DNA of 61,350 nucleotides, the filler included, from Hausera hauseri (lineage: Eukaryota), in the NCBI GenBank assembly GCA_046269625.1. It is 10 parts of 10 records of this genome, joined end to end, with 100 filler letters (N's around TTAATTAATTAA, not from the genome) between each part and the next. Parts side by side here need not be neighbours in the genome. Positions count along the whole stretch, not along the records: positions 19,720 to 28,256 come from JBJURY010610999.1; 9 more parts are not named here. One strand, given 5' to 3'. The notes beneath the pieces are model-generated. The model saw only the letters and a program-made list of their open reading frames with translations, made no database searches and had not been told where the DNA came from. Positions within the stretch are counted from its first letter, which is position 1; each line of letters begins with the position of its first letter. The position numbers and the translations under genes are program-made. Positions 11,071-48,399 of this stretch are shown here, one piece after another.

Positions 11071-11333
11071 TTTTCGAAGAAAATAGATGGAAAGCGAATG
11101 TTGAACGATATGTTGGCTATCATAATCGAAAACGTAAAAGGAGACACATATTTAGTTACAAACGCAAATTCATAAATGTCAAGACACGAACAGATAACCC
11201 TGACGATGACGAGCCTAAGGGAGGAGACGCCGTCTCTAATACATACAAATACAGAAATTATTCCGTTATAAAACCACCACTACCAACACTACCGCCAACT
11301 TCATCTATACATGAAGACTGTGAGAAATAATCT

Positions 11334-15046: not shown

Positions 15047-15059
15047 TCAATCGAAAATC

Positions 15060-15400
15060 GTACGACAACGACGTTTCTTTATAGTTGAAAAGCTAACTGA
15101 TCTACCACGTTTTCTCAAGCCACTACAAGCGAATTGTTTTTTGACTGATTCATTGATTCCCGGTGCAGGCTTTTTATTTCTGACAAGGTGTGTTCCTTCA
15201 ATGATTGTAAAATCGATTTGTTTTCATATAGTACATCCTATGCTGTTTTTGTTGCCACGGCTTCGATACGCTTCAACACCGAAAATGCTAAACGTGCCAG
15301 CGTACGCAACCATCCAGAGCTATACTGCTTACCAACGAAATACGGCAGTTTACCTCCTTGCTGGGGTTTACTGTAAATGGAAACGATTTCAGAATCAATT
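15060..15400 (-). pseudogene. Polinton core/PM-like small protein
   Basis: Manual translation PQQGGKLPYFVGKQYSSGWLRTLARLAFSVLKR, a QxGG motif plus amphipathic helix, at the usual position before the major capsid gene. Confidence 0.7.
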
Positions 15401-15403
15401 GTT

Positions 15404-16484: not shown

Positions 16485-16520
16485 GATCTCGATGGTGATG
16501 ATAATGATGCAGTTTGTTTA

Positions 16521-17591
16521 TTATCGACGTTGACGACGTCGAAAGTGTAACGTTAAATGTGTTGCTGACCCGAACAGAAATTTAATGGGTTCCCAAAATT
16601 CATCAAACATATACACGAAAATACTGTGCACAATATTGTGAGATAATGATAAGTACATGGGTCTTAACATAATAACGCGAACAGTTTCACCCGATGATGC
16701 TGATTTGTACGTGTCAGAATCCAGTTCGATAGAAGCCAGCAGTTGTTTACGTTCTCCACCAACAAGTACGGATTCGGTTAAGTCCGTTAAAATGTTGATT
16801 CGGTGAAATGCTCCATAGAGTTGTGGCTTGTATTTGCCAACAATAGATCATCCAACAATGTTTTTATAGAATTCACGTTGTGAAAAACCCAGATTCCGGG
16901 CCAATAATTCATCAAATACAAAATATGTAACATTGTTATGGCATGTAATCGAAATATGACCATCTGCGTTTATTTCACATGTCTTTACGGCTAACGTAGC
17001 CGTTTACTTGATGTATTCTCACAATTCCAGCTCCGTTTTTATTAGTAAATTGTGTGGTATAATACATGAGTGGAAAACTCATTCTGACGTAGTTCACATT
17101 ACTATAATATCAGATTCCTCATCGGATGAAAGGTCCAATTTTTCACCAATTATAACATGTTTACCTAACCTAGACGTTTTGATTGTACATTGACTGATAG
17201 AAAACCCCATGCCTAAGCATCAACTATAGAATTAAATTACATTTCCATGGGATTTCGATGTATTAGTTCCATACAATAGTTTGAAAAATAAGCATAAACC
17301 GAAAAATTTTCTCGCGAATAATTGCAAAGAATATCGGTTATTGTGTCGGATTGTCCGCAAAAGACTTAAAATCTGGTACGTTTCTTGTCGGGTAAAGTAA
17401 ATACCACTGGTCTGACGTACTGTCATTGGTAAAAATGTAAACATAAATTCCGTCAAAGCCACTTCCCAGGCTCCATGGCCTAAATCGACCGGTTGGTTCA
17501 AGTGCACGGTAAACAGTTTAGCGGTATTGTCGTAGTCGTCGTCATGTTATGATAATGATCTGTTACTATCAAATACCAAATAAATGCTCAT
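16521..17591 (-). pseudogene. Polinton minor capsid protein (penton), copy 1
   Basis: MSIYLVFDSN..NTAKLFTVHLNQPVDLGHGAWEVALTEF; C-terminus (manual) ILTDLTESVLVGGERKQLL..RPMYLSL..LTLHFRRR*. Confidence 0.8.
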
Positions 17592-18725
17592 CACTCATCT
17601 GCGATGCAAAAATCCAACACGGTGTAGTGTATGCGTGCCACTTGACGAGACATAGTTTATTCGAACCTTTGCCATGTGAACGTAGAATTTCCTGAATATG
17701 ATACACATCAAATTTTTCCGGTATTACTTGCAGTTCCTGTTCATAAAATTCGCCATGTATTTTGTCACCATTTTAATCTTCTAAAACGTACATAACCGGA
17801 CTTTGTTTTGTGTTGATTGCTGAAATTCGGAAAACCTCATCGCTCCAGTTCTGATTGAAATTTCTAATGAATGGTGTCATACTCAACTTCGAAATACGTA
17901 CGTAATCACCGATTTTATATTTTTGGTGACGATTAATTGTCTCTCGTCCTCGTCAATTGTTTTGATAAAATCACATATCCAAATCATCGATTACGTTAAC
18001 CGGCCGTAATCCATTGATGCCACGATGTGTCGAATGATTGTATGCATGAATAATATCTGGCAGTACATTTACCTAGCGCTTGTTGCCTTGCTTCGTAAAG
18101 ATTTTGTTTATGCGACCGTGCAATGTTCGATTAAATTGTTCAATGAGTGCCGCTTTGCATTACAAAAACAACGAGTAAAGGTTTACGCCGAACCGTTTCA
18201 AGACCGCGACAATGTGAGCGTTGTAGTATTCCTTACCCAAATCCGTTTGTAAATTATTCGGTGGCTGTTGTTGTTGTTTTTGTTCGAACAGTGTCTGAAC
18301 AGCGTCGGCAATCTCTTTAGCGAATTTAGATTTCACGGCAACTGCACGTGCAAAGCGACGCATGTCAGTACGTACCGATATTCATCGTTGATGCTGGCAT
18401 ACGAAATCATTTTCATCAGATCCATTTGCCATACTTTATTTACACCGGAAGCACATTATGCACAAGTTGGAAACCGCCTTCTTATCGGTTTGTTTAGGCT
18501 GTATGCTTACTGTTTCTCGAGCCAACGTTGGGTCCCGTGCCGAATCTGTTTGACAGTCTTTTCCATCTTGTCGACAACAGTATACTCGACGGGGTGACGC
18601 GGATCGAACCACACGTTGCCTATCGTTGCCGTCAATGGTGTTGGTTTTGCTTGCATTACAAGAGTTAGAACGAAACGTAAATGAAAGATTCCGTAAACTG
18701 GGACAGAAAGATGAAAACCATGCAC
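17570..18725 (-). pseudogene. Polinton retroviral-type DDE integrase with C-terminal chromodomain
   Basis: WFDPRHP; WLEKQ*AYSLNKPIRRRF; WQMDL; LQTDLGKEYYN; EQFNRTL; KYKIGDYVRISK; NWSDEVF; FYEQELQ; LVKW..CWI. Confidence 0.88.
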
Positions 18726-18767
18726 CCATATTACCGATTCATCATATACTTACCGTCATTGTTTATA

Positions 18768-19055
18768 CTAAACTGTTCCACCAATGAGTTCATCCAGTAA
18801 TAATGTGACAATCGGTAGAATTGCACCAAAGAATCCACCGTATTCCTGGTACATGACCTTCCGTTTCAGTCGTTTACGACAAGGGTTCGAAAAGCCAATG
18901 AGTCGTTTTCGATACTTTAGTAAATTGCGCTTTCCACTGCCAGTGTCAATGTGATCCACATCGATATTGTACAAATTTTCCATGAAATCGTCTACTACAA
19001 ATTGCGGGAATGATCGCAGTATGTTTCGCTTATGTATTGTAGACGCCTTGAGCAA
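18768..19055 (-). CDS. Conserved Polinton small protein ending in xGG|F plus hydrophobic helix
   Basis: KRKVMYQEYGGFFGAILPIVTLLL, a motif typical of the ORF between ATPase and integrase in Polintons. Confidence 0.65.
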   Translation of the reverse strand: MLKASTIHKRNILRSFPQFVVDDFMENLYNIDVDHIDTGSGKRNLLKYRKRLIGFSNPCRKRLKRKVMYQEYGGFFGAILPIVTLLLDELIGGTV

Positions 19056-19374
19056 ACAATAAAGTACGGCTGACTACGTTTGAATCGCATGTTTCTCGGA
19101 TGTATTGATACTGCTGATGAGATGTAGCAGTTGTTTGTAACCGTTGCCACTGTGACGATAATTTGCATCTAGTTTTGTTGTTGTTCAACGAAGCACAGAA
19201 TTGTTTAATCGCTTGACTGTAGTGGTGGTTCGTTTTGATACACGTTTTTGCCACCGGACACCCGTTTGATATTAGGTTGTTTACGTTTAACAATCGTTTT
19301 TCGGAAATTCTTAATTTTTATCGAAATCATGTCTTTGTCAATTTTCGAATTTGTTTATAGACACATACACCACC

Positions 19375-19619
19375 CTTCTAATGGAAAATATCTGTTCGTG
19401 CACGCATTTCATCGGGATACTCTTGTGTAAAGTCGATGAACAAGTATCCGTGTGGCTCGTTCGTAGCATCATGATATGCATATATCAAGTAGGCTCGGTT
19501 GTGAGGAAATGCTTATCGTGCAACATAATCAATGATAGTCTAATCACGGGGATTTTTGAACAACACCAAATAGTGTACGTTTAGATTTCTTGTTCGATGC
19601 TGTCCGCCCTGATGGAACA
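19375..19619 (-). pseudogene. Polinton packaging ATPase (FtsK/A32-like), C-terminal part
   Basis: Manual translation RTRNLNVHYLVLFKNPRD*..AYHDATNEPHGYLFIDF..RARTDIF. Confidence 0.85.
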
Positions 19620-19719: not shown

Positions 19720-20790
19720 AACAGAATCATGTTATATAATTCAACTAAATCCATTTTCGCGGTGTGATAAACATAATCTATCTTATTATTCGTATATAAA
19801 TACCACTTTATGTCTTTAGTTGGTAGCTTTCATGTATTCGCTAAGGTTTCTTTTGTTACGAATAAGCTCTCATAAGATGTCGAATAAACTGCATTTGACC
19901 CGCAAGTCGATACTGCTCCTTTGCGTGCTAATACTATTCTATCTTTATCACTAGATGACATTAAAACTTTCAAAAAAGTAGTCTGTTTTAAGGTTCGTGG
20001 TGTAGGTAAACTTATATTATGATTATGTACAAACTCTTGCTACTTGTCATCATAATATAAATAGCCTTGTATTTCATACATAGGTACCTGTTTAAGGAAA
20101 GCTAACGGACATATCGTAACTGTTTTTTCCCAGACTAGCGTAGATTCTCCTCATGTACATACTCCATCACAATATGCACCAGATGGTGCGGTTAACATTT
20201 TTCCTGTGATTGCATTAAAATTTACTTTATGTTACTTTATGGTGACGGTAAAATCTTCTATTTCTACTACAGCAGATTCTTTTTGTCTATTTATCATCAT
20301 ACTTTCTCCTTTACAAGCTCCACCGTATCCGAGCCATATTTTTTCGGCTGTAACTATACGTGAATAAACTCGTTTTCCTATACCTACTTGTTCTGTTTGT
20401 TGTAAACCTACGTGGATTGAATCTGTGGCTTTTCTACAATTTTCTGCAGTAATTATTAATTGTCTAGGTAATCCTTGTAGAATAATTGCGGAATTTCATG
20501 AGTTATGACCACAGTTATAAGCAAATACTACTTTATTAACCTGACATTCCTTTACCTGTACTTGTTGATAACTGATTCTTTGATACAAGTTATAATTGTA
20601 AGGGCCTTCCTTTTTTACTGATATCGAACTTGTGTTTTGACATTTACCTATATCTACTAATGAAAGTCTGGCTGTTACTTCTGGTCTAGAGATATCGTAA
20701 GCTTCTAATGCTTTTGTAGTTTTTAAGCTGCTCACTGATATCAAATACAATAACAAATGAATGATTTGCACTACCCATTCTGAAATATTG
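19720..20790 (-). pseudogene. env: Chuvirus G-like envelope glycoprotein, N-terminal half
   Basis: WVVQIIHLLLYLISVSSLKTTKA|LEAYDISRPEVTARLSLVDIGKC..YQRISY..ECQV..YNCGHNS. Continues in one frame through point stops: ENCRKA, GGACKG, STLVW, TCGSNAVYSTSYESLFV, YTNNKIDYVY..LVELYNMIL. Confidence 0.85.
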
Positions 20791-21433
20791 GTATCCTTAG
20801 GGTATATTAATGTAGTGGGGTTAAATTTTTTGAGAATTTCATTCCAACCACTGTTTTTCGTTACCCAATCTTTTGTTAGTTTATCCATGTGATGGGCTAA
20901 ATCTCTTACTATGTGGTGTAACTTAGCATCGACCTCTGTTTGATTTTTAAAACTAACCACTATGCAGCCTAACGCCATCAGCAATCGGTTTTAATCATAA
21001 TGATTTAATAGTCGTGTCAATGCTTTATTCAAACCTCCTCTCAGTTTATATTTCTGTAGTAACCTAGTGATTTGCGACGAAAATTTCTAGCGGTTTCTAT
21101 TACAGACTGTAACGGAATTGTCGTAATTGCTGGTATTTTCTTAAGCTGCTTTGGATTTGCTTTCTTGATTAACTGTTTCAGAAGTTCATGAGTTGTCAGT
21201 GTTACTTTTGGTACATTTATTTCACTTTGTTTTGAAGTTCCCGAGATTAGACTTTGTATTGGCTCATTCTCATTGTCACTAATGGTGAATCGTTGAAAAT
21301 TGTCATATAATATATCTTCCAATGTTTCCCGTTGTTCCCTACATCTTCGTGACAGTGGCCTTTTCTTTCTTTGCCTTTCTGGCTTTTCCTTTTCTGGATT
21401 TTCTTCATCATCACTTATTGGGTTAAAGTCACA

Positions 21434-21700
21434 TTTTCGCGGTCTCCCTCCTTTTTTCATGGTGCCAATTTCCATAGTGATCTGATAAGTCTTTCCGGTA
21501 AGGAGCCCATAATCTACAACATAATCACTGTCAACGGCTAATCTGCCATAAACATCGGTTTTCACTATTATATTGGTCTCTAGTTCTAATTCGTCCAGTA
21601 CTTTTTTTCGAAGATCTGTGAATTTAGTAAACATTCCCGCTGTTACCTCGGTTACTTGTTTCCGCTTACTGATTCTAATTTCTATATTTATAATATATGG
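21434..21700 (-). pseudogene. Ubiquitin-like domain followed by KKGG-RPRK
   Basis: INIEIRISKRKQVTEVTAGMFTKFTDLRKKVLDELELETNIIVKTDVYGRLAVDSDYVVDYGLLTGKTYQITM aligns in register with ubiquitin (G47, D52, D58-Y59, T66 equivalents). Confidence 0.65.
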
Positions 21701-22499
21701 TTGTTTTCTTCAGTGTTTTCGTCTTAAATCTCTTCCCAGAGTTTTTAATAACTTTCTTGAGGCTGAAAAACAGAATGCATCATCTCTCGTTAGTGGTAAG
21801 AGTGATGGTGCACATTCTATTCGACTAGCTAATGGTAGTAACTCGTATTGCCGTAAAGCATTCCATACTTCGTTAGGTGCTGAATCACCCATTTGTAATT
21901 TAGCTTTAATTACTTCATTTGTTGATTCTAAAGGTTCACCGTGTACTATAGAACCTGGTGGAATATTTACTTCTGGAATAATCTTTGGGTTTTCAATTGG
22001 TTGCAGCATGGTATCAGGGTACTAAATCAGATCCGGTATAGGTGTGAGTTCATCATCTTCTAGGATTTCAAATATTTCATAATCATCGACTACTTGCGGT
22101 TCCTTTTTGGATGTACTTGGTTGTAATGAATCCCAAATATTCTCGAAAAAAGTTGGTTGTTGGGTTGGAACCTTTGCTTGTGAAAGTGGTGTAACTAGTC
22201 TATCGTTATAAGGTTCTATCCATTCTCCCGTTGGTTTTATTCTGGTGGGTTCATGTGAATATTCGTCAGAATCCATATGTGGATGCCTTTACGCTATTGG
22301 CCCAATTGACGGAATTGTTCTTGCTTCCTTAGTTTTATCAAGTTTTTGTATTATTGGGAAGGCTATTCGTAATGTTTTCTGGCTTTCTATTATCCACTGT
22401 ATATTATATTCTACGCTCACAGTCTTTAGGTATTCATCTAGGCATCTTTATGCCGTAATTTCCGAATTATGACCGTGGTATAGGTCTAAACATTTGTAG

Positions 22500-23655
22500 C
22501 TTCTGTTGGTCTGTTTCAAATCATAGATAGCTGTTAGATTTTTTGAATTTATTCTCAATATATTTAGTAGCTCTGTCAACTAGCGTCCAATGATTACTTT
22601 TCCTGGTAAATATCTATTCATAAATTCACTTACCGACTCTTGTTGTTGTGGATAAGACCGTCTGCTATATTCAGTGTACTTAGTAGTATCTGGTATATTT
22701 GGATATACATGAATATTGAGGATTGTTTTTTCTTCTAGATTCTTGACAGTGACCTGAATAAGTCCCTTTTAATCTCCTTTGGTTATTCATCTACCGGTAA
22801 GAATTATTTCTCTGTTTTGTGTTACTGGTTCATCCACGGTTAACACAGGCGTTTTCTTAAGCAACTGTATTAAATATATCGGACAGTTATGCAAAGGTTG
22901 AATTTGATAATCTCCTTCGTAGGGATAATTAGGGATTATCTTAGTTTCTTTGTAAACTATTACCGTCTTATTGTTGATTTGTAACCGGGCTTCTCCTTGA
23001 TTAGTAATTATAGCACATGGCGCGTCATTTCTTTTAACCTGAATATCAGTCCTTTTTAAATAAATTTTATCAATACCTTCCATACCGATTGATCCTTGTT
23101 CGGCAATATCTGCGAATTTTATTCGGTTGGATTTCTTATCAGCGAATATTTTATCCCAATTCTGTATTATATTTACATCCATACGCTGTAATGCCGCTTC
23201 TGGGATCAGAGTAGTATTATATGTCATCTCTTGTTGAGGGTGTTTATCATCCTTGAATATAGGTCTGCTTGGAAAAATATAATATGGAGATCCCTGACAG
23301 TTAAGTTTAATTTTATATTCTTGTCGTAAGTTGGTTACTTAATTGTAGTAAAGTACTTCGTCTTTCCCATTCATTGTATGGTAGGTTGAAATTCTGATCT
23401 GCACTAAACGTACCAAAGACATCTGTTTCCTTTAATTGTACTTGTTTAAATAACCATGGCAATTCTATTCCAACAATAAGTTTTCTAGAGAGTAGCTGTT
23501 TAAGGTTTTCGTAGCATTTTTCTTTTTCCAGACATACGTTTTCTGATTCAATTATCAACTCACCTTCAATATTCTCTATTCTTATTCGATTAACTTCTGG
23601 TTCCTGTTTATTATTAATAGTCTTGTCCGCGGTACAAAGATTAAAAGCAAATTTT
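22500..23655 (-). pseudogene. Two degenerate DEDDh (REX4/ISG20-like) exonuclease-fold domains separated by a linker
   Basis: FAFNLC..VNRIRIENIEGELII..LKQLLSRKLIVGIEL (23655-23390) and GLIQVTVKNLEEKTILNIHVYP..TKYTEYS..EFMNRYLPGKVIIGR*L..LNILRI..AIYDL (22820-22500). Confidence 0.5.
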
Positions 23656-23852
23656 TGATTTCTTTAATTTCTGGCCATAACATATATGGAAGTGTAATAT
23701 TTTAAATGTCTGGTACCTTTCGCTCTGCTTGATCCAAATAATTACTTGTTATGAAGGGCTTTTCCAGGATTGAACTATTGGATGGCGGTTTAGGTTCAAC
23801 TTGATGGTGTTCTATTATGGGTTTTGCCATTAATAAGCTCGTGAAGGCTGAT

Positions 23853-26438
23853 TTAGTTTTGTTCATTGAAAGTTACTGAATGACGGAGTGAAGCACTTCT
23901 TTCGTCGTTGTTACACTTCCTATTATCACAAGAGATTCCTTTCTCTTTTATGGAACTATCATAAGATGGTATTGTTGATTTCGACTTTCTTTCAGTGGAA
24001 TATTTGGAATATTCTGGTGTCGTATTTTTGTCATATATAAATGGGGAAGTGTTTCTATTAGATGATGAGTCATTTCGTCTAAAACTATAACCTGACGGTT
24101 GGGTATATCTATCATTATTGTTATTTGGTATGAAAGAAGGGGTTCGATTTCGGTCTCTTGGAGGATATGGACTAGGATTCCTATTGTATCTATCCGATTC
24201 TCGTCGAGGTGGAGTATAGTCACGTCTTCTGTCATAGTTTCCTGATCTTAAATCATTATACCTATTTCTATTGTCATTTCCGGAATTATACCTATCTCTA
24301 CTATCACCTCGCCGGTTATCTCTTTCGCTACTATGATTTCTATTAAAGTTATTATATCTTTCTCGACTATCATCTATTCTAAACCTCTTACGACTTTCGC
24401 TTCGTCTATCATTATAATATTTAGGTCTTGATCCTTCCAAACGATTGGTTGGATATCGTGTTCGACTATCATCTCGTAGATATCGTGTTCGACTATCATT
24501 TCGTTTATAGTATGAGTTCATTGAATTGTTTCTATCCTCGTAACGACCGGAGTTTCGGTCGTTACTGTATCTTTCTCTACTAGGGAATCGGCTTCTGTTA
24601 TCATTTCGGTCTCTTGAATAGCCTCGTGATCTATATTATCTGATATCATTTCGCTGTTGATCATCATAGTTTCCCCTATTTCGTTGATATTATGTATCTC
24701 TGGTTGCTATTATAGTTTCTAGATGACTGGTTAAAACTTCCTCTCTCTGGGGTATTACTTCGCTATGGTGTATTGTTGTCTTGCCGATTAGGACTTTGGC
24801 TTCTCGAAGAATCTCTCCAGGGTGAACTGCTACAATTTGGTACATCTGGCCTCACTAGTAATGGTGTCGTAGCAACTGCTGCGATTTGCGTTTGATAAGT
24901 CCATAAAGGTGTTTCGTCTATCCGTGTTGCCATTTTCGGGTATAATCTATCAGCTCATTAATATTGTTGGATGTATGAAATTTAACTCTTTCTCGTAAGG
25001 GTGGTAAGAGTCCAAGTACGAATTGTTTCGTGATCATGGCACCAAAAGCGTTTGCGTTATGGCCAAAATATCTAGTCATTGCTGTATTAAACCTATTGAT
25101 ATAGGTCAAAACTTCTTCATTTAATTTTTGTTTACAATTTTGGAATTCTAAATATTTTTTTTATCTTTCCGATTTTGTAAGATCCTTTCTGTATGTTGTA
25201 TCCAGGTTTCATTTACTCGTGCACGTAGACGGGTATTGCCATTCTCAAATCGTTATTCACATGTACTGGTAAGAGTGATATCTTCTTGACATCATTCCAA
25301 TGCATGGCTGTAGCTAGAGAATCATATTCATCCAACAAATCTTCCAAGTCTGATACTCGTCCTTCATATGGTTGAAGACAGGGAAGCATCTGATATTTCT
25401 CTTCTCTTCTTTCGTTACTATTTGGTAAAACGTAACCGGCATTATTATTAGGGTCGTAGTTACGCTCATTTTGATGAGCTAACAAGTCTCGGTTATTCCT
25501 TAGTGGATCCATGTTGTTGCTATCAGTGTCAGAAATTTCACAAGGTATGGAACTTAGTTCCACGGAGAACTCTGGTGATTGTACTTCTTCCTGCTGTTGA
25601 GTTATCATTTTCTTTGTCCTTACTTGTTTTAGACGTTCGTTTAATTGATTTATACCTCGAGTTAACGTTTCTATTTAATTTCTGGTATAAGTGTTTTCTA
25701 CTTGTATTTGCTCCTGCTCGCATACTATGATCGCAACTTCATTTTGTATTCCACCTAACCTTTGACTCACTTGCCTCTCATTATAATCGGTCTGTTCTCT
25801 ATTTCTATGTATTGCTGCTATATTGCCAATAGTCTGTTGTCGTATATCACATATTTGTCTGGAGTGGATGTTAACTTCTCGTGCAAGTTGGCCAGTCCTC
25901 TCCTCCAATTCGTTCAAGTCTATATTATTATCACTCACCTTTTGCTCTATTTGGGTGGTTATTTCTTCAACTCTGTCCAATCTTGTACTATTATTCTCTG
26001 TTATATCCCCTCATTTTTGTCGGGGTATATCTTGTATTTCTTCAATTAATTGTCGTATACTATCGTCCGTTCGATTCTGTCTTATTCTTAGATCATTCAC
26101 GTTCACCTGATGTACTTCATAACGTGTTCGACATTCAGATTCCTGGTTAACTATCCTCTGTACCAATTGTCGTGGATTAGGTACGTTACGATATTGCCCT
26201 ATAAGCGGCCTTCTTCGACCACTGACTTCGCTTACCCAGTGGTGCTGTACCGGGGTGGGGACAGTTGTAATGAATCGATATCGATTAATGATTCTGGAGC
26301 TGATGCAGCTCTTAAGGCGTCCAAACTAGAGGCGGAACTAATATTTTCTTCGTTTGAATTAATTTCATTAATTGCCGTTAATTGATTCCGTGCTAGTCGT
26401 CCTCGGGATCGGGTATTGTATTGATGTCCCTGCGCCAT
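23853..26438 (-). pseudogene. gag: Gag: coiled coil, capsid, long RS/RD-rich basic region
   Basis: MAQGHQYNTRS start; coiled coil 25980-25675; LQPYEG..DEYDSLATAMHWNDVKKISLL; QKLNEEVLTYINRF..QFVLGL; RS-rich 24800-23853. Confidence 0.82.
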
Positions 26439-26473
26439 TGTTATTAAGGAAAACTAAGTTGTTATCCATATTA

Positions 26474-27001
26474 TTATATGTATATAGTACAAGCTTGTTC
26501 TATAGGTAATTCACACACAGCACATCTTAATAATATAGAATCCTTAGGAACACAGTTTTTACAATGAATAATGTGTCCTCATGGCAGATAAATCGTATTC
26601 GATTGATTTTTTCTACAAATTAAACAAGTCCAAATTGTTCGGCCAATATCTGTGTATCTTTATCAACCTCTTCCTCTTTTTCCTTTAATATTAAAATCAA
26701 GTGTAGAATCCTTTGATAATAACCGTCATCCATTAATTGCATTTCATATATATATTGGTAATCATTCCAGGTAATGCTTCATACTCTGCATTCTCATTAA
26801 TTTTAATTTGGGGTATCCTTGCTCGGTTATTCGGTTGAGTAAAGGATTGTTATACAAATTGTACCATTCATACACTAATTTAGGTGGCTAATTTTTTATT
26901 GTCCGTAATTGGGTTGTGCAGTTATTAAGATTGGCCAGAGTCTTACTGTTGTTGTCCAGAAATTCTACAATAAATTCATTCAATTTTATTACTAAACTCA
27001 T
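26474..27001 (-). pseudogene. UBA-like plus IAP-type RING finger protein (not in ORF track)
   Basis: ATG at 27001; NPLLNRITEQGYP (UBA-like); WTCLICRKNQSNTIYLP*GHIIHCKNCVPKDSILLRCAVCELPIEQACTIYI*. Confidence 0.78.
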
Positions 27002-27050
27002 ATATAAACTAATAAACATTTATTCAGATAAGATTTATACTAAATGTTAA

Positions 27051-28256
27051 TTAATGTTCGTCGATGGAATCATCTTCATTATTCTCTTCTGAAAACTGAA
27101 AATACGTTATTCGTCTTTCTATAAGACTTCTGCAGACTGGGCAATTCATTATTTGATCTGAGCATTTCTCACCCGTTTTTAGATGACCCCACGGCAAAAG
27201 GATAACCTGTGCTACGTCTACGTAGCAGATTACACATTCGAGATCGCGTAGATAGAGTTTTTCAAGAATATTTCGTTCGGGTTCTCTCCCTTTCTCCAGG
27301 GAAATAAAATTCAAGTTCTGAAGTAATTCGAACGCATTTGGCGACCAATCTGGTTGAGTTTCTGTTCGATTATTAATATACTGTAGGATATTCTCGAGCT
27401 TTGCCGGATGTCGAGATATTATTGATGTAGCTACTGGGCTACCCTGATAACTTTCATATAGGTTTCCGATATTGAATTGTACTTAACATTGTTTCTTCGT
27501 ATGATTTCCTGATCTTTTATATATGGAATATTCACATTTATTGGTATGTAATATTTTCGGACATCGTTGATCAATATTTTCCAACCAGTACGTTTCTTTT
27601 AGACATAGTACATTTAACATATTGTGCTTCTTCTTTGAATATCAATATCACTCCTTGTCTGGCTAAATCTTCAATATGTTTATTTCTTTCCAAAGTTAAT
27701 TTTCTCTTCTATACGGTATTTGAAATCAAATGTGCATTTTCTTCCACCTCTGTGTTATCCGTTGAATAAACCATTCGCACTGGTATTATCGCAACGTAAT
27801 CGGTATCCCGATACAAATCAGGTTGTTTATCAAAAATATCTGTAAACGGTATATTGCTGACGTTGATATTCAATAAATAGGGACAGGTAGAATATAGTTT
27901 CTTATGTATCTCTTTTGGTCGATCTTTCATCTGTTTATATTGGAATTGTCCCTGGCAATAAAAGCATTTAATCTGTCCTGTTGTAGTACGAAATAATCCG
28001 GCTTTAGTATACAATTGCGCTAATTCTCCTGGAACGGGTGAATTTGGGTACTTTAAGAACGATATTTTTCTATTTTATGTGTCTCTCATGGAGTTATCTA
28101 ATACTCTTATTTTGGAGTAATTTATTATTCGTTTAACGAATGACACTGGTCCGTACTGTCTATTTTGGTAATGTAATAGATATTGTATTGTATTAAAATG
28201 GATTGATTTCTGATCCTCATATTGTTTGGGTGTTTGGAGTTTTATATCTTTCACCT
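27051..28256 (-). pseudogene. iap: Inhibitor of apoptosis protein (BIR-BIR-UBA-RING), intronless
   Basis: BIR1 NRKISF..YP..AGLF..KCFYC-x16-H-x6-CPYL; degenerate BIR2 DLARQG..VKC..W.E..H...CEY; UBA-like SPVATSII..FELLQNL; RING CVIC..LPWGHL..CPVCRSLI. Confidence 0.9.
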
Positions 28257-28356: not shown

Positions 28357-28869
28357 ACCATACACACTAGTAACACGGACATTGCTTACACCTTCTATAT
28401 GTCTCTATTCTCCTTCCTACACACTCCCGACTTTTATTTGTCGCACCATGGTTCTGTGCTACATCCATATTACTCACTTTCTTCCTTCGCTTCTCCGATC
28501 ATTCATATCACCCTTCACTTTCACATCCGAGGCGGTTCGGTCCCTGATCCTTCTACTAAAAAATCCTCCAAAACAAGACTTGGTCGTCGCCCTGCTGACT
28601 CTTCACAATTTGCTTCCCCTAATCTTCCTGGCACAGAGTTCTTCCTCGATAAAACTAATTCAAGCCGCACTTGGCTGCAATTTCATTTACAATGGCTTAC
28701 AGCCAGTCATATTACCGATTCTTTCTTGCGCGCTAACAGCTTGTTACTTCCTCTCCCAGCAAATATCAAGCATCAAATCAATAATATTGTTGATATCCTT
28801 ACTTTGCCAACACCATATGACATGCTTTATGAGTTTGTTCTTCATATTACCGATCCATCGATTGATAAT

Positions 28870-29365
28870 ATAAAACTGTGGTGCCCACATTGACTCATTT
28901 AAGAAAAAAACTATGGAATTAGCAAATAAAATCATTTGTAAAGTTATCATAAATTTATATAATTTAAAAATGAATAAGTGTCGTAATTGCAGATTTTGCG
29001 ATACCCGCCAATCTAGTGTTGTTTAAATAAAAAAAATTTGAGATTAAAAAATTTAAAAAAGTAGATTTTCAGTTTTTTTTTCATTCTGCCATTTTTATTT
29101 ATCAAAGAAATGAAGTAACCTTTTTATTCAATGCCTGTACAGACTCATTTTTTGTTGGGAACAAGGTTCTGTTTAGAACAAACTGTCGATGCTGATCATT
29201 TTTGCAAATCTTTAAAATCCCCCTTGACCATTTTTGCAGAAACTCTGGGAGACTCATAACCTTTCTCGGGGGTAGGTTAGAACTCCCTACAAATGCGGCT
29301 AACTTCTTGATGCTATTCAACTCTGATTTGAATCAGAACGAATTGGAGATAAAGTTCAAACTTAA
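28870..29365. mobile_element. Insertion splitting gag of element E, possible Helitron remnants
   Basis: Gag stops at DPSID and resumes at IQKYFNEHSISNQKPS. The insert has a degenerate GC hairpin plus CTAG-T (28988-29017) and minus-strand NRTLFPTKNESVQALN resembling a PIF1 helicase motif. Confidence 0.45.
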
Positions 29366-32300
29366 CAAATACAGAAGTACTTTAACGAACATTCTATAAG
29401 CAATCAAAAGCCTTCTGACTTTCTGCAGACCTATATTTCACACATAAGTGCTCTTGGCGTTACCTCCACCAACAATGCGGACTTGATTCGTCATTATTTC
29501 CTCTCCTCCTTGCCCATTTCCATCAGAGCTCTCCTTACTGTCGTTGACGACTCGACGGCGATTAAAAAACTTGCCCTATTGGCTGATAAAAGTTTCGAAA
29601 TTTTACAAACTAACAACTCACAACCCGTAGCTGCAGCAACCACGCATACTCCATTGCACGTAGACACGACTGTTTTCGCATAGCAACTACAATTAATGCA
29701 GAAACAATACGATACTCTACAACATTCAATTTCCGCCATCACGGCCCAACTAAGTAATCTGTCTATGTCTCGGCGAGGGGAGACCCGTGCATCGCGTGAG
29801 CATAGCCTCTCCAGGCACTCATTTCGTTCAAAATCTCTTGGCGGACGAATGATTTGTTTTTATCACAATAAATTTCGTAGAAACGCAGAAAAATGTCTAT
29901 TGGGCTGTAAATTTTATGACGAGCATTTTGCGGTGGACAGCCCTATCTGTATTTACCACGCAAAATTCCACTATCTTGCCAAATCGTGTATACCGGGATG
30001 TAAACTAAACAAAAACAACTTCAGTTTTTATTCATCTTCTTCTCCTCCTTTTTTTATCATTCATCTACTTTTCCTCCACAATCTTCAAAAACTAAAAAGG
30101 GCGCCAGATGTCACTGCACATTCTGGCATAGGTAATACCGCTCAGTCTTCTGGCAGTCTTAACACCGCCTCCGCAGTTTTTCTGTTAAAAGTTGCACTGT
30201 TGTCTAGCAGTGCTCCACATATCGATTTTCTTATCGATCCAGGAGCTGACTTGTTACTCGTCCCTTTGTCCTTCGTCCCTACACCCACTGCAGTTTCTTC
30301 TCCCCCGCTTTTCACTGCCAGTGGCCAACCTTTGACAATCGCAGGTACCACGGAACTGATTTTTACGTTTTCAAACTTATTAGGCAAGTTTGTCTGAAAA
30401 TTCCACATGGCCAATATTAAATCGCCAATAATCGGCTCAGCATTTGGCCTCACACGACCTGCTAGTTGACTGCAAGTATGGCTGTTTGCTACGTAGAGAC
30501 TCCGTCGAGAACGATAACAATTGCCTACCAGACAGCTCAACAGGCACTTAGTCTGCGAACTTACATGTGAATTTGACAAATTCCTCGTCGGTTAATAACA
30601 ATTCATTTAGTAGTTTATCTATTTTCTCAATTACATTTCAAACATCAAAGTAAACTTTAAAACAATCCGTTAAAACGAATGTTAATGGCGGCGATGTCGT
30701 TCGTTCTTCGCCAATCACAGTGACCTCCTCTTTTGATAATATGCCTCAATCATTTTTATCACTAGATTCCAATCTCAAATCCTACATCATTTCTTCTTGT
30801 TCTCGCATACTCAAAAAGGACTCTAGTTTTATGCCCCCGTCAACAACTTATCACCACATTGTCACCCAACACCAAAGACCTATCAGAAAAAAGGTGCGAC
30901 CATTATCACCTCGTAGACAAAAAGCCGTGGAATTAGAGTTTAACGAACTCGAAAAATCTGGTATCATTCGGAGTTCAAAATCAACATGGGCTTTACTATT
31001 ACATGTAGTATCAAAAATACGGTATTTTTCGACCATGTGGCGACTACCGTCAAGTAAGCAATCTAACCATCATGGACGTTTACGCAGTATCGCTCATAAA
31101 AGACATCCTGCACAGTCTTAACAACACCAATACGTATTCCACAATACATATGCACATAGCCTGCCATCAAATTCCCTTTGCACCCGATGACATTTCAAAA
31201 CTGCTGTCAACATCCATTTGACCTGTACTAATACATCTTTATGCCATTTGGTTTACGTAACGCAGCCCAAACCTTTTAACGCCACATCGACACCGTTCTC
31301 TCATGCCTTGGTTTTGCTCATCCGTACATCGATGACATATTAGTTGCCTCCAAATCCGTCAAACAACACCGTGAACATCTCCGAATTATTTTTCACAGAC
31401 TACATCATAGCAACTTACAAATTAACTTCTCAAAGTGCAGATTCTTTCAGAAACCTGTCAATTTCTTAGGCCACATCATCACTCCGCACGGCCATTCTCC
31501 ACAACCTGATCGACTACAGAAATTGAAAAATGTAACAGTACCAACGACCACTAGAGATGTGAGGAGTTTTCTTGGCACAATTCATTTCGTCCATAAATAT
31601 GTACCGCATTGCTCTAAGCTTACAGCACCTTTCGCACACCTCTCATCTGGAAAGAAAAGGCAGTTAATACAGTGGACTCCTGATTTAGTCAACAAATTTG
31701 ATTACTTACGTGAAGGCCTAAAAATCGTCGAAATACTGACTTATCTAAAACCGGACGGGGAACTGATACTCACCACCGATGCCTTTACCACAGCTACTGG
31801 TGCAATACTACACCAGATTTCCAATGGCGTCGATGAACCTTTAGAATTTTACTTTCGAAAATTGACACAACCAGAAAGCCGATATGCAACATTTGATCGT
31901 AAGGTACTAGCCATATTTCTGGAAGTAAAACATTTCAAGCATCTCTTCTCTCCTCCATTTATCATCCAAAAGGACTACAAGCCTCTACTTCACATCATGT
32001 CACTAAAACAGCCATCACCGATACAGGAACGAAAGATATCGTACCTATCTACATTTAGCTTCGTCATAAAGTATATTTCAGATACTAAGAATTTGGTCGC
32101 GGATTTCCTGTCGCAGTCGATCAGCTCAATTACGGTTAAATCAATATTTTCTATCGAAATTCTAAAGCTCAATCAGCCGTCTGCTGATATTCTTAGCTCT
32201 TTCAAATCCTTCGAAATCATTGATGTCATTGCATACTACACATCTAACCATGGTAATAAAATAATCATTCTTGCTCCTTCTTTGCAGAAACCAGCTTTCC

Positions 32301-33778
32301 TTCACATGCATTCACTTCATCATCCAGGCTCGAAAGCCACGTTTCGCTTGGTCCAACATCATCTAGTTTGGCCATTAATGCGCACACATATACAGGGTTT
32401 GGTTAAGGAATGCGTAGCCTGTCCAAAATACAAAGTGAACAAACATCTTAAACCGCCGCTTTACCATTTTCCCTGTACGCCACGTTTTCCTACCGTCCAT
32501 CGTGATCTCGTTGGACCCTTACCTTCTGACAACGGGTACCAGCATATTTCCACTATGATGAATTGTGATTCTCGCTGGCCTGAAGCCGTTTCTCTCCTTT
32601 CAACAAAACTGATACAGTAGCAGATGCCTTCATTAAAATCTGGATCAGTGGTTTTGGATCCCCGCGGCACACCATAACGGGCCAAAGTCGGCAGTTCAAA
32701 TCGGAACTGTTTAAGTCGCTTGTTAAACGCTTGGGGATATCACATTTCCATACATTGCCGTACCATCTACAATCAAATGGCCTTCTTGAAAGATTCCATT
32801 GAACAATAAAAATTTCTTTAAAAATCTTGTCAGACAATCATCGAAATTTGACATCCATCCTACCATTTTTTCTACTCGGTTGCCGCAACACTTCTTCCAC
32901 CACCACTGGTTGTGCTCCAGCCGAGGCATTTTTTGGAGTCTAATACGGGCTCTGTTCGAACTTTCTCACTCGACGACAATCCGACAGACAAAAACATTCG
33001 CGCGGCACAGTCTCACTTCGTTGAGGTCAGCTAATACTCGTTCTGCCGCCTATTCAACAATAACAAATCGTACATTCCGAAGGATTTATACTCAGCCAAG
33101 TTTTTATGGCTGAAGGATCAATCACCTTCGGGTTTTCGACCTCAGTATGTTGGCCCATACAAACTGCTTCACCTCTCATCTCATACAGCTACCATCTTAC
33201 GCCAAGACAAACCCTACAACGTCAACATTTCGAATCTTAAGCCCGCTTTCTTCGTTGACGACAATCCGGATGCCGATTATACTTCCAACCCTAACTCAAC
33301 TCTCACTCCTTCCATTCCTTCCTCAAACTTTCTCCACGACTTCCCTCCGTTGCATCACACTTTTCTCTCACATTAAATCATCCTCATCTTTCGCACCGCT
33401 TACTGTACCTACATTGCTTATTCCGTTTTCTCCGCCCGCCCTCTCCCCCTCTTTCACCATCTCCACCGCCTTCAGTTTCTTCGCCTGTTTTGCTTGATTT
33501 ATTCTCTTCACCATCTTCAACATCTTCATCACAAGTAACACAGCGTGTTGAATCAGAAAACCTTACAAAGCGTCTACCACAAAATATCATTCAACAGCCA
33601 AGCACAAATCAATCAAATAAGGCATTCAGATTGATATTTAGTACCTATAGCAGGGAAAAATCCGTAGACGGAATACAACGCCTCATACACACCAAAACCC
33701 AATAGGCACCAAGCATTTTTTGCGTTTCGCCTCTTTCTGTTTTGCTTTACAGTTTGTTGTCTGCCACGGGGGGGGTGA

Positions 33779-33961
33779 TGTAGTGCCACGGTCTAGAACA
33801 TGGCCCTCCATTTTTGGCAATAGTCACCGTTTGGTACAGCTAGGCCGGCACGGTTTTCGTCCTGCCTTTTACTTTTGGCCTGTGTTTATTTGACAGCCCA
33901 ACAGTGCACATTAGTGTCAAATAAAATCAATATTCTTATTTGGCTGTTTATCAGACTACCA
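33779..33961 (+). repeat. 3' LTR of element E, after polypurine tract 33768-33778
   Basis: G8TGA PPT, then TGTAGT...ACTACCA ends with AATAAA at ~33920. Confidence 0.75.
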
Positions 33962-33994
33962 ATTATTCTATCTTTTAATTTTGAACGTTTGTTT

Positions 33995-34094: not shown

Positions 34095-34677
34095 CAATAC
34101 AATTTATGTTCCTCTAGTTTTTCTTCAGATAATTTTCCAGTTTGGTTATAAAAATGTGAAAATTACTTCTCACATACTAATATGCTCTATTTATGTTTCT
34201 TAATAACAACAAATCCCGATGGTCTATTTTTCTTCCATTGCAAACTTTGACTCTTTTTCATCAATTGCAAAAAACATTGATTGATGTCATTGAAATTTTC
34301 AAATTTCTTGATATCTAACGATGTAGAAAATGCTATACTTGAAAATTTATATGAATGATCAAGGCTTGTTTATTGCTCAACTCGCTGTGGATTTGTATCT
34401 GCAAATTTTGATAGAATTGAATACATAAAGCATAAATCAACATTGTTCTGTACATTAATGCAAGCCTTTTTATCTTCGGTCCATTGACGCAGCTTAATGT
34501 ATGATGATCTACGCATCTGAGAATACTTGTGAATTCTCACATTGAGTCCTTTTATTTCTGAAAGCGTCCATCCGCTTTGCTTCTTGATTTGAAGGCCCTT
34601 TAAGACAGTTCACCATTCTTTTCAAAAATGGCCAACAAATAAGTTTCCATTTCATGCTGTGGTTGCATCATTTTTTG
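34095..34677 (-). pseudogene. Polinton pPolB N-terminal fragment
   Basis: Manual translation QSGWTLSEIKGLNVRIHKYSQMRRSSYIKL..DKKACINVQN..LCFMYSILS..NPQRV..IKKFE. Confidence 0.8.
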
Positions 34678-36950
34678 TGTGATGAGGAATTTAAACGAAT
34701 ATTAATGTTTAAATTCAATTCAAAGTCGATTCAATAAATAGCCAATATAAAGTTAAGAAATTCAAAAAAGGATGAAAATAAGATTCATTTAATGAGTGAA
34801 AGGGATAATTGTTATACAAACTTTTATAATAAATTTCTAATGCATAATTCAATTTTACAATCATCGAATGACATTGAGGTCGGAATGGTAGAAACGCGAT
34901 CTACTAACTTAGCGAACCACGCTTCAAGAGACTTCTTCGAGAAGAAATTGATGCCAAAAGAACTCCAGAAAGGTGACAACGTGGAAATCTTTATTGGAAA
35001 ATGCGACAGATACTTCGATTTCATAAGGATGTCGGAGTCGGATCGGGAAACCGCGGTCCTGTGCCTGTTGGCGGATGAAGAACAGGAAAAATACCAGCTA
35101 ATGAGCCAGATGGTGAAAGGTTATCAAAATCGGTTGAGAAAAGCCTTTGAAAAACCCACAACGCTGTGCGGAGATCTGCGCGAGGCATTGGACTACAGAA
35201 TGAATGGGGCAGAACCGGACGCCTACTTTAACAAAATTGAACAATTGGCGAAGAGCATTCTTAGCCACAAAGTAACACTGGAAGCTCTAACAGAGTACAT
35301 GATGATCCACTGTTGCGACAATCCAGAGATAAGAAAGGAAATTTACCGCTGTGACGAAAAAAGCGTCGAACAAATCAAAGAGAAAATACGGAAAGTCCAC
35401 GAAGTGGCAACAAAGACGGATGAAATAAGAACAGTCAAAGAATAGACTAGAAACGGTCGACGGAGTTACAGGGATGTGGCGGTGCACAAATTTGACAAAC
35501 CAAGACAGGAAAGGAAGGATTTCAAACCACACAATACGCAGGCAAAGACCACGATAAAATGCTGGTCGTGCCAAAAAGACAGACATACAAGCAGGATATA
35601 CAACCTCCAACATGCACCAAGATATTTTGGTTGCGGGAAAGAAGGACACATTAACATGAATGGCCCGGAAAGGAAAACAATTATATGCTATAGGTGTGGT
35701 CAGCAAGGACACAAAAGGCGAAATTGCATAAGCATAAAATGCAATAGATATCATAATAGAGGGCACAGAGACGAAAAGTGCTATACAAAATTGGACAAGA
35801 GTATAAGGGGACAAAATACGTATATCGACAATTTCAAACGTGCAGGGTATGTTCAAAAAATATATGGAGAGACGATGAACAACAGGCACGCATACGTTCA
35901 AAATAGTAACGAGGACTATGAAGAATCCGTCACAGAGTCGACAAATCCAAAAGACACGGCCTCGACAGAAGTGGAGCTAGTCGGGGCATTACATTAACCA
36001 ACTCAAAGGCTCCCAAAATATCGAAAGGAACGGACAAGGTATTGAAGAAATGAAGGGAAGAACAGAGGGAAAGATACGGAGGTTCAGAAAAAAGGAAATG
36101 TTTGGGGACAAAAGCAAAGAAGTATGATCTACAGAAAGTCAAAACGAGAGCTTCCATGAAGAGAGGATTTTTGCCATGGAAGGACTGAAGGAAAAGAGTA
36201 TCACTACGATAAGGACGGCCAGGTATAAAAATAAAGGTACAAGATAGATGGAAAGACTGCCTATTGGACACAGGGGCACGGGTGAACGTGATGAGTAGGA
36301 CGATTTTTGAAAGATTGACAGATGTCCAGCTGGAGAAATCAAATATCACACATTTTGTGAAAATGGCATCCCCCTAGACTGTATAGGTTCACTGTCCATA
36401 AATGTGGAACTCTAGGGAGTACAAAAGCGTGTAATGTTCATAGTAGTGACAGACATATCACCATAAATAATAGGAGGAATGGAACTACAAAAGACTTTTG
36501 GAATCGAATTAGATTGGAGACAGAAAGATGGAGACGAACAAAGGTATGATGTATGCAACTTAGAAGCAAAATTTGGTCGAAAAGTGACGAATGAAGAAAG
36601 ATTCAAAAGAGCGAAGGAGATTCTGCGGATAAAAGATAACTCAGTGGTATTGGACATAATACGGAAGAACTCAGAAGTCTTCATGGCGGACAAATGGGAT
36701 ATAGGCTGTACAACATTGATCAAACATAGAATAGACACAAAAGGTGCACCAATTAACATCAAACCGCACAGACAACCAGTGAATTTAGAAACTAAAATCG
36801 ATGAGACCATCCAAAACTTATGGGAAAACAATATCATCAAGAAATGTAATTCACCTTGGAATACTCCAATGATCTGTGTCTGGAAGAAAGAGAAAAACGA
36901 TGTCAGAATTTGTCTAGATTTTAGATTGTTGAACCTTGTCACAGAAAGGC
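34678..36950 (+). mobile_element. Ty3/Gypsy 5' part (putative ~196-bp LTR, gag with four zinc knuckles, protease, RT start)
   Basis: TGT...ACA AT-rich block 34678-34873; MVETRS gag start ~34885; knuckles CWSC, (Y)FGC, CYRC, CNRY; CLLDTGA; SPWNTPM..VRICLDFRLLN, truncated at ~36950. Confidence 0.85.
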
Positions 36951-38232
36951 TGAGGCACAACCCGTGGTGGTGGAAGGAGTGTTGCGCCTACCGAGTAGAA
37001 CTAATGGCAGGATAGACGGCCAATTGCGATGATTGTCTGCTAGGGTTTTTAAAGAAATTTTCATAGTTCGATGGAATCTTTCTAGCAGGCCATTTGCTTG
37101 TGGGTGGTACGGTGTTGTGTGGAAATGTGATATCCCCAAGCGTTTAGCAAGCGATTTAAAAAGTTTCGATTCGAACTGCGGACCTTGGTCCGTTATGATA
37201 TGCCGTGGGGTCCAAAACGACTGATCCAGATTTTTATGAATGCATCTGCTACTGAATCAGTGTTTGTTGAACGGAGAGGAACGGCTTCAGGCCAGCGAGA
37301 AGCATGATCCATCATAGTAAGAATATGTTGATACCCGTTATAGGAAGATAAGGGTCCAACGAGATCAAGATGGACGGTATGAAAACGTCATTTACATGGG
37401 AAATGGTAAAGCGGCGGTTTAAGATGATTGTTGACTTTGTATTTTTGACAAACGATGCAATCCTTAACCCAACCCTGTACATCTGTAAGCATAGATGGCC
37501 AAACTACATGACGTTTGAGCAAACGAAACGTGGCTTTTGAGACTGGATGATGAAGTGAAATCGTGCGAAGGAAAGCTGGTTTCTGCAAAGGAGCGAGAAT
37601 GATTTTTTTATTACCGGGGTTAGATGTACAGTATGCAATGCCATCAGTGATTTCGAATGATTTGAAAGAGCTAAGAATATCAGCAGACGGTTGATTGAGC
37701 TTTAGAATTTCGGTAGAAAATATTGGTTCGACCGTAATTGAGCCGTTCGACCGTGACAGGAAATCCGCAACCAAATTCTCCGTACCTGAAATATACTTTA
37801 TGACAAAACTAAATGTAGATTGGTACAATATATGTCGTTCCTGCCTCGGTGATGGCTGTTTTAGTGACATAATGTGCAGCAGAGGCTTCTGATCCGTTTA
37901 GATGATAAATGAGTGAGAGAGAAGGAGATGAGTGAAATGTTTTTCTGCAAGAACTATGGCTAGTAGCTCATGATCGAATGTAGAATATCGGCTTTCTGGT
38001 TGTGTGAGTTTTCGAGAGTAAAATTCCAAAGGTTCGTCGACGCCTTTGGAAATTTTGTGTAGTATTGCACCAGTACCTGTGGAAGTGGCATCAGTGGTAA
38101 GTATTAGCTCCGCGTCGGGTTTTGGATAGGCCAGTATTTCGACGGTTTTTCGGCCTTCACGTTAGTGATCGAATTTGGTAACTAAATCAGGAGTCGATTG
38201 GATTAGCTGTCTTTTCTTTCCCAATGAGAGGT
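36950..38232 (-). mobile_element. pol: CsRn1-like RH-INT fragment, close relative of element E
   Basis: Reverse complement is near-identical to E ~31640-32920 (LKQPSPRQER, HHPVSKATF, TTPYHPQANGLLERFHR). Confidence 0.9.
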
Positions 38233-38332: not shown

Positions 38333-38604
38333 TGCTTTATATTGTGATGTTTTGTTAGTTTGGTGAATCCGTGATTTTATACTGTGATTTTAGATTTTGT
38401 TTGCTGTTGATTTTTTATTGACCAAGTTTGTGAATTTAAATTGGGATTTTTAAATTTTAAATTTTGTTATTACAAATTTTGTTTAGACATTTAAATTGTT
38501 ATTCGAAATTCTGTTTTCACGGAAAAAAATATTTTTTAATTCGTGGTTTTATTTGATAAATTTATATTTTGATATTTTTGAATTTTTTATTTGTAAGGTG
38601 GAAC

Positions 38605-39655: not shown

Positions 39656-39656
39656 T

Positions 39657-46851: not shown

Positions 46852-46924
46852 GTTTGTAACTGTAGGCTCTCTATGTCCATTTTGTTCCTTAATTCTACTT
46901 AATTGTGAGCGAGGCTAATTTCCT

Positions 46925-48364: not shown

Positions 48365-48399
48365 GTATCGGCTCTAAATGAAATGAACAGGGTAATGTT

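What the first reader, a model, noticed from the sequence alone, without database searches (positions are those of the whole stretch)
27051..28256. Captured intronless IAP (BIR-BIR-UBA-RING) upstream of gag
Seen: exact BIR spacing Cx2Cx16Hx6C, a second degenerate BIR across a frameshift, a UBA-like helix block and a terminal RING. It is co-oriented, with only ~50 bp to the next gene and ~35 bp from that gene to the gag ATG, and no LTR in between. Known: IAPs are hallmark anti-apoptotic genes of baculoviruses and other large DNA viruses; as I recall, giant planarian Burro Gypsy elements are a precedent for anti-apoptotic cargo. Inference: a host-defence-suppressing accessory gene carried by an enveloped retroelement.
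Basis: partly seen in the sequence, partly recalled or inferred. Interest (0 to 1): 0.82.

Follow-up and report, generated by a model that had tools for sequence, protein, structure and literature searches.

The report
Anti-death gene inside enveloped retrotransposon
A broken copy of an abundant virus-like jumping gene carries, just ahead of its capsid gene, an intron-free gene of the apoptosis-inhibitor family and a second RING-finger gene, likely once used to keep host cells alive, much as already reported for the Burro elements of planarian flatworms.

Summary
Minus-strand 27051-28256 encodes a decayed, intronless IAP: BIR (Pfam E 2.7e-7), a second BIR-like unit and a RING (E 8.6e-10), with one frameshift and three stops. 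It sits at the cut 5' edge of an 8.5-kb contig; the window is ten joined contigs, so LTR, PBS and pol cannot be seen. The IAP is element cargo: it is multi-copy in one sequencing run, diverged contigs bridge both spacers, intact ~50%-identical relatives exist, and one lies on a contig of the same length (6,828 bp) as an intact gag relative. Relatives show one gag-X-env (gB-type) polyprotein, as in planarian Burro, whose anti-apoptotic B-IAP is published. This scan noted a similar cargo on another genome. Deviations: BIR2 has a family-conserved Cx2Cx18Hx3C spacing, BIR1 lacks the consensus Trp, the UBA is unproven, no CCHC knuckles were found. Donor and host are unresolved. Verdict: a real further example of Burro-type cargo; interest 0.4.

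The parts
27051..28256 (-). Decayed intronless IAP gene (BIR1, BIR2-like unit, three-helix segment, RING). About 3 codons are lost at the contig edge; stops at 28077, 27711 and 27485; frameshift near 27606
   Evidence: 38-51% identical to intact relatives P0005-P0007
27874..28062 (-). BIR1; zinc core Cx2Cx16Hx6C at 27966-27883, lacking the consensus Trp
   Evidence: Pfam PF00653 E 2.7e-7; model of P0006 matches XIAP-BIR2 at Z 9.2, rmsd 2.6, 88 aligned
27534..27708 (-). BIR2-like unit, split by the frameshift; spacing in relatives is Cx2Cx18Hx3C
   Evidence: no Pfam BIR hit for this unit
27315..27434 (-). Three-helix segment at the UBA position (approximate limits); UBA identity inconclusive
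   Evidence: no UBA Pfam hit
27114..27245 (-). IAP-type C3HC4 RING; 2 of 8 ligand positions substituted in this copy
   Evidence: Pfam PF13920 E 8.6e-10
26474..27001 (-). Second accessory gene, broken, ending in another C3HC4 RING (26635-26477); start codon uncertain; N-terminal part unassigned
   Evidence: PF13920 E 4.5e-8; 35-39% identical to the IAP RINGs of relatives
23850..26438 (-). gag-like region: coiled coil, capsid-type segment, Arg/Asp/Asn-rich tract; no CCHC knuckle
   Evidence: 42-52% identical to P0001, which has Retrotrans_gag E 7.6e-4, below the cut-off
21084..23849 (-). Unassigned middle of the polyprotein (X), continuous with gag and env in intact relatives
   Evidence: 56-62% identical to P0001/P0002; no Pfam family at E 0.05
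20790..21083 (-). Possible Bcl-2-like domain directly before env (weak)
   Evidence: the relative's stretch hits Bcl-2-family chains at E 0.07-0.8; the window's copy does not
19720..20760 (-). gB/chuvirus-type env, cut by the contig end
   Evidence: PF24664 E 1.6e-18; E 1.9e-63 in P0002
28257..28356 (.). Artificial joint between contigs (N44, 12-base linker, N44); not biology
   Evidence: nine such joints in the window

Best explanation
This is a dead copy of an accessory IAP gene that belongs to an abundant enveloped Ty3/gypsy-like element with a Burro-type layout (IAP, second RING gene, then a gag-X-env region that is one polyprotein in intact relatives), and in intact copies it likely acted as a ubiquitin ligase that keeps the host cell from dying. 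Shown: the domains, the gene order, the decay, the many copies and the intact relatives. Inferred: the BIR units recruit a host death-pathway protein, the RING ubiquitinates it, and cell survival lets the element finish replication and be inherited from stem or germ cells. Because BIR1 lacks the consensus Trp and BIR2 has altered zinc spacing, I expect RING-dependent control rather than classical peptide-groove binding of caspases. A pol gene after env and an LTR 5' of the IAP are predicted, not seen.
For: Domains: (profile match to XIAP-type IAPs, probability 99.5, collinear). Copies: 25,157 contigs of run X1 on the 8.5-kb contig, 30 of 30 bins covered. Of 8 pieces listed, one diverged contig (30 differences in about 244 nt) bridges IAP and the RING gene, and another (40 in 266) bridges the RING gene and gag. 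Relatives: P0005-P0007 (3 of 104 candidates) are 49-65% identical to each other yet keep open frames and their zinc ligands, which a pseudogene would not. P0008 (IAP) and P0001 (gag) each lie on one ENA contig of 6,828 bp; the two ORFs plus the window's gap need 5,844 bp. P0001 and P0002 tile 26438-19722 as gag-X-env, the layout given for Burro. Function precedent: Burro1 B-IAP protects stem cells from caspase-mediated death, as summarised in PMC13465017.
Against: No LTR, PBS, TSD or pol is seen for this element, and the gag hit is below Pfam's cut-off. The P0001-P0008 linkage rests on equal contig length, not on read DNA. The two bridging contigs have low depth (2.8 and 3.6) and come from one run that may be the source sample. 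Trp is present in 58 of 59 cellular BIR cores (mostly mammalian XIAP) and in 0 of 3 element BIR1 cores, so anti-caspase activity cannot be assumed. The Bcl-2-like call is weak and fails on the window's own copy. The ubiquitin-like domain of Burro was not detected.
Confidence: 0.62

Rival explanations
1. The gene is element cargo but no longer anti-apoptotic. It is a repurposed E3 ligase whose altered BIR units bind an immune-signalling or restriction factor, or the element's own proteins, and the second RING gene works with it.
For: BIR1 lacks the Trp of the published BIR consensus (PMC13159474 passage) and its core is basic (net +4 to +5). BIR2 spacing is non-canonical in 4 of 4 relatives. 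A second RING gene lies next to it. Type I BIRs bind signalling proteins rather than caspase motifs.
Against: The full BIR-BIR-helical-RING order is kept. The only tested element-borne IAP is anti-apoptotic. A possible Bcl-2-like domain in the same element points to the death pathway (weak).
Confidence: 0.27
2. The IAP and RING genes came as a block from a large DNA virus or Maverick-type element, not from a host mRNA, and were joined to the retroelement.
For: Compact, intronless, co-oriented genes with a 14%-GC spacer. Viral IAPs top the viral fold search (E 6e-6 to 1e-3, 22 matches).
Against: Those viral IAPs are only 13-20% identical, no closer than cellular XIAP at 22-25% over about 80% of the length. 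No viral-contig relative was found. No donor is identified either way.
Confidence: 0.07
3. It is a host processed pseudogene that happens to flank a retroelement insertion.
For: It is intronless and decayed, and the element's 5' boundary is not visible. Intronless IAP retrocopies are common in animals (PMC13159474 passage).
Against: Thousands of diverged contigs cover it, diverged copies bridge both spacers, and 49 + 35 nt leave no room for an LTR. There is no poly(A) tract. Relatives at 50% identity keep open frames, and one shares a contig length with gag.
Confidence: 0.04

Closest known systems
Burro / GYPSM1 giant Ty3/gypsy elements of planarians (PMC6431247, section 7 read in full; figure not seen)
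   Same: BIR cargo; N-terminal gag; mononegavirus-like env in frame after gag in one polyprotein; accessory ORFs upstream of gag; possibly a Bcl-2-like domain just before env.
   Different: No CCHC knuckles in the gag relatives (Burro has 2-3). No MATH, ankyrin or ubiquitin-like domain detected. LTR, pol and total size not seen. The text read does not say where Burro's BIR lies, so the upstream position cannot be called new.
Burro1 B-IAP (Lee et al., Dev Cell 2026; not read, known only from passages and the reference list of PMC13465017)
   Same: A RING plus BIR region carried by a gypsy element.
   Different: Described as RING and BIR and tested in live stem cells. Here there are two BIR-type units, a helical segment and a second RING gene, and the copy is dead. 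Sequence homology to B-IAP was not testable.
GAG-ENV-POL errantiviruses with HSV/gB-type env (PMC13524379; abstract, outline and passages)
   Same: gB/chuvirus-type env placed after gag; reported in Nematoda, Bryozoa and Platyhelminthes.
   Different: The main text has no occurrence of 'apoptosis', 'BIR', 'RING' or 'Burro'; supplements not opened.
Cellular XIAP/cIAP/DIAP and baculovirus/nudivirus IAPs
   Same: BIR(s) plus C-terminal C3HC4 RING, collinear with XIAP BIR2-BIR3-UBA-RING.
   Different: Only 22-25% (XIAP) and 13-20% (viral) identity; BIR1 without the consensus Trp; BIR2 with Cx2Cx18Hx3C; no UBA family hit.

Membership tests
IAP (BIR-containing) family | At least one BIR with three Cys and one His in Cx2Cx16Hx6C spacing | tested here: met
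   Pfam above cut-off in the window and P0006, at cut-off in P0007
IAP (BIR-containing) family | Full published BIR consensus including Trp (C-X2-C-X6-W-X9-H-X6-C, PMC13159474) | tested here: not met
   0 of 3 element BIR1 cores have the Trp, against 58 of 59 cellular cores
RING-type IAP | C-terminal C3HC4 RING | tested here: met
   all 8 ligands in 4 of 4 relatives, 6 of 8 in the window copy
RING-type IAP | Second canonical BIR | tested here: inconclusive
   aligns with XIAP BIR3 but has Cx2Cx18Hx3C, no Pfam hit, and low model confidence in its second half
XIAP/cIAP-type IAP | UBA domain before the RING | tested here: inconclusive
   three helices at pLDDT about 58-82 in a model fed with XIAP rows; XIAP UBA Z 3.8, rmsd 6.5, 64 aligned, rank 18, below PDCD5; no PF21290 hit
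RING-type IAP | Caspase inhibition or E3 activity | not testable with these tools
   needs an assay
Ty3/gypsy LTR element with env | gag capsid domain | tested here: inconclusive
   Retrotrans_gag E 7.6e-4, 20.1 bits against 24.1, on relative P0001; none on the window's pieces
Ty3/gypsy LTR element with env | env fusion glycoprotein | tested here: met
   PF24664
Ty3/gypsy LTR element with env | pol (PR-RT-RH-IN), LTRs, PBS, TSD | not testable with these tools
   the contig ends inside env and at the IAP start; no whole genome is held
Burro | gag and env in one polyprotein, env before pol | tested here: inconclusive
   P0001 and P0002 overlap and run gag-X-env in frame; pol not seen
Burro | BIR cargo inside the element | tested here: met
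Burro | BCL2-like domain before env | tested here: inconclusive
   57 of the 60 rows shown (93 matched) are Bcl-2-family chains, highly redundant, E 0.07-0.8; window copy and Pfam negative; Atlas under 0.9
Burro | Ubi/SUMO-like domain before BCL2; MATH and ankyrin domains | tested here: inconclusive
   no hit; the published calls used HHpred, which is more sensitive
Burro | 2-3 CCHC knuckles in gag | tested here: not met
   none in P0001 or P0002, and none in this contig
Burro | Giant size (over 30 kb), triclad host, RT in the Burro clade | not testable with these tools
   no Burro sequence, RT or host marker was available

The most novel reading that the evidence does not exclude
A retroelement lineage separate from Burro, or far older than triclads, carries a three-part death-control kit: a stand-alone IAP with a new zinc-finger variant (Cx2Cx18Hx3C), a second RING ligase and a Bcl-2-like module fused to env. 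If the host is a flatworm of the groups that lost RING-type IAPs (PMC13159474), the element would be supplying a gene class its host no longer has.
Probability: 0.2. Interest if true: 0.68.

Novelty: new member of a known kind. Interest (0 to 1): 0.4.

Why it matters
Accessory genes that manipulate host cell death are rare in LTR retrotransposons; the one tested case known to me here (Burro1 B-IAP) turned out to support regeneration. A second, divergent family with intact natural relatives would show how general that bargain is. It also offers a natural BIR variant with which to test what these domains need for activity. It does not change the concept, and this copy is dead.

Tried and rejected
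Looking 5' of 28256 for the LTR: the sequence there is another contig. No whole genome is held. BIR1 ORF as homolog query: 0 of 61 candidates. Related loci: 0 of 3 and 0 of 563 pattern matches in viral contigs, 0 of 234 and 0 of 97 in JGI metagenomes. Of 4 hits, P0003 and P0004 were dropped as short repetitive matches. Family-only AlphaFold model of P0006 was unusable (pLDDT 30.7). The deeper model (51.7) contains XIAP rows, so it is partly circular; its PDB Foldseek hits were all BIRs at E above 0.001. No RNA holder listed. A recalled resemblance of region X to DEDDh exonucleases got no PDB hit (one search was off-frame, as was one piece). tRNA scan empty; the bacterial promoter scan is not informative here. 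Depth differences between IAP and gag were not used to rank genes: IAP bins 665-3,289 resemble the 5' gag bins, 1,808-2,249. The Dev Cell paper and Grohme 2018 could not be read. Literature searches listed no retroelement-borne IAP other than Burro; I saw listings only for most rows.

Full report
Setting. The window is not one locus. Nine N44-linker-N44 joints split it into ten contigs, most of them fragments of Ty3/gypsy elements. The finding lies at the 5' edge of the minus-strand contig 28256-19720. Everything beyond 28256 is another contig, so the LTR, PBS and target-site duplication of this element cannot be examined, and no whole genome is held.

Observation. The three minus frames of 26400-28256 give a BIR (PF00653, E 2.7e-7) and an IAP-type RING (PF13920, E 8.6e-10). 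The BIR core is exactly Cx2Cx16Hx6C at 27966-27883. It is the only such motif in the window's six frames, against 0.025 per shuffled window in 200 shuffles. A search with the 3' half found three unnamed ENA proteins among 104 candidates (P0005-P0007, E 1e-48 to 4e-43, 49-51% identity). The window aligns to the 403-aa P0006 over residues 4-216 and 218-399 in two frames, with no intron-sized gap. The gene is therefore nearly complete, missing about three codons at the contig edge. It is dead: one frameshift near 27606, stops at 28077, 27711 and 27485, and two of eight RING ligand positions substituted. The rest of the contig is equally decayed.

The gene between IAP and gag ends in a second C3HC4 RING (E 4.5e-8), only 35-39% identical to the relatives' IAP RINGs. 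The second BIR is not just decayed: 4 of 4 relatives carry Cx2Cx18Hx3C there, so the odd spacing is a family trait. BIR1 keeps its zinc ligands but lacks the Trp of the published consensus (PMC13159474 passage); the Trp is in 58 of 59 cellular cores, mostly mammalian XIAP, and 0 of 3 element cores. The UBA is unproven. The segment aligns by position with XIAP's UBA and models as three helices, but Pfam gives no UBA at E 1 and the structural match to XIAP UBA is only Z 3.8, rmsd 6.5, 64 aligned.

Is it part of the element? Four lines say yes. First, geometry: 49 nt from IAP stop to the next likely ATG and 35 nt from that gene's stop to the gag ATG, with no internal repeat or poly(A) tract. Second, copy number: one public run holds the stretch (47% of sampled words); 25,157 of its contigs lay on the contig at 80% identity or more, covering 30 of 30 bins, and 3,223 lay on 26300-28256, 1,551 of them under 90%. 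Third, among the 8 pieces listed (3,229 more not shown), one diverged contig spans the IAP/RING-gene spacer and another the RING-gene/gag spacer. Both are low-depth, and the run may be the source sample. Fourth, relatives: a search with region X gave 4 hits, of which 2 are real (P0001, P0002). P0001 is a 1,339-aa gag-X frame on a single ENA contig of 6,828 bp. P0008, a 403-aa IAP 99% identical to P0006, is also on a single ENA contig of 6,828 bp. The two ORFs plus the window's gap need 5,844 bp. I infer that they share a contig; the DNA itself could not be read. The IAP relatives are 49-65% identical to one another and still open, which implies long selection (inference).

The element. P0001 and P0002 overlap and tile 26438-19722 at 42-66% identity. 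Together they show gag, region X and env in one frame. The gag call is modest (Retrotrans_gag E 7.6e-4, under the cut-off); env is firm (PF24664, E 1.9e-63 in P0002). No pol lies between gag and env. A different element in the window (5139-13906) has gag, env, PR, RT, RH in that order, and env-before-pol is reported for nematodes, bryozoans and flatworms (PMC13524379 passages). Just before env, P0002 has a stretch whose PDB hits are Bcl-2-family chains in 57 of 60 rows shown, redundant and weak (E 0.07-0.8). The window's own copy hit only three designed thioredoxins and Pfam found no Bcl-2, so this stays a lead. A ubiquitin-like domain, which I suspected by eye, got no support.

Mechanism. Most likely, intact copies express the IAP as an accessory E3 ligase that recruits a death-pathway protein through its BIR units and ubiquitinates it, so that the cell carrying or replicating the element survives. 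Domains, order and linkage are shown. The target, the activity and the mode of expression (gag is the third cistron, so splicing, reinitiation or an internal promoter is needed) are inferred. The BIR deviations make a repurposed, non-caspase target a serious rival (0.27). Origin is unresolved: XIAPs are 22-25% identical (25 hits among 2,512 candidates) and viral IAPs 13-20%.

Comparison. PMC6431247 (section 7 read in full; figure not seen) describes Burro/GYPSM1 with BIR, BCL2-like and Ubi/SUMO-like motifs, env in frame between gag and pol, and upstream accessory ORFs. PMC13465017 (passages) reports that Burro1's B-IAP (RING plus BIR) protects planarian stem cells from caspase-mediated death, citing Lee et al. 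2026, which I could not read. So the element works like Burro. Membership is not established: CCHC knuckles are absent, and RT, LTR, size and host are untestable here. PMC13159474 (abstract and passages) states that RING-containing IAPs were lost in the platyhelminths sampled, which is what makes the novel case interesting if the host is such a worm. Earlier scan notes guess a flatworm; I did not test that. PMC13238120 and PMC11410931 (passages) add nothing beyond naming Burro. No supplements were opened; those of PMC13524379 list elements and might include relatives. Eight literature searches showed no other retroelement-borne IAP.

Verdict. Interest 0.4.

Noticed in passing
window 5139-13906 (+): A second, unrelated decayed element with gag (CCHC), an unassigned ORF, gB-type env, then PR-RT-RH: a direct gag-env-pol example. 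Its env is only 26% identical to P0002.
   Followed up: partly
window 14007-19619 (-) and 56432-61350 (-): Decayed ORFs that look like Maverick/Polinton capsid proteins and a protein-primed DNA polymerase (recalled motifs). Only support: DNA_pol_B_2 at E 0.11 for 57799-58134. The two contigs share 284 nt at 81%.
   Followed up: partly
window 45496-51494 (-): Gypsy pol followed by several unassigned ORFs, some with hydrophobic segments (for example 46928-47305); possible accessory or env-like genes without a Pfam family at E 0.001.
   Followed up: no
window 28357-33994, 34095-38232, 38333-45395, 51595-56331: Two related gypsy families with a strong C-over-G skew on the coding strand; copies 85-90% identical within a family. 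Contig 38333-45395 holds a 1-kb inverted duplicate of its own 3' part.
   Followed up: no
window about 22300-22800 and 23350-23650 (-): Region X has two stretches that by eye resemble a degenerate DEDDh exonuclease (recalled); no PDB or Pfam hit.
   Followed up: partly
window about 20720-20780 (-): One hydrophobic segment (P0002 1337-1355) could serve both as the tail anchor of the Bcl-2-like part and as the env signal peptide.
   Followed up: no
window 2941-3018: Short tandem repeat, three copies at 20-nt spacing, in a contig with no family hit among the three ORFs scanned.
   Followed up: no
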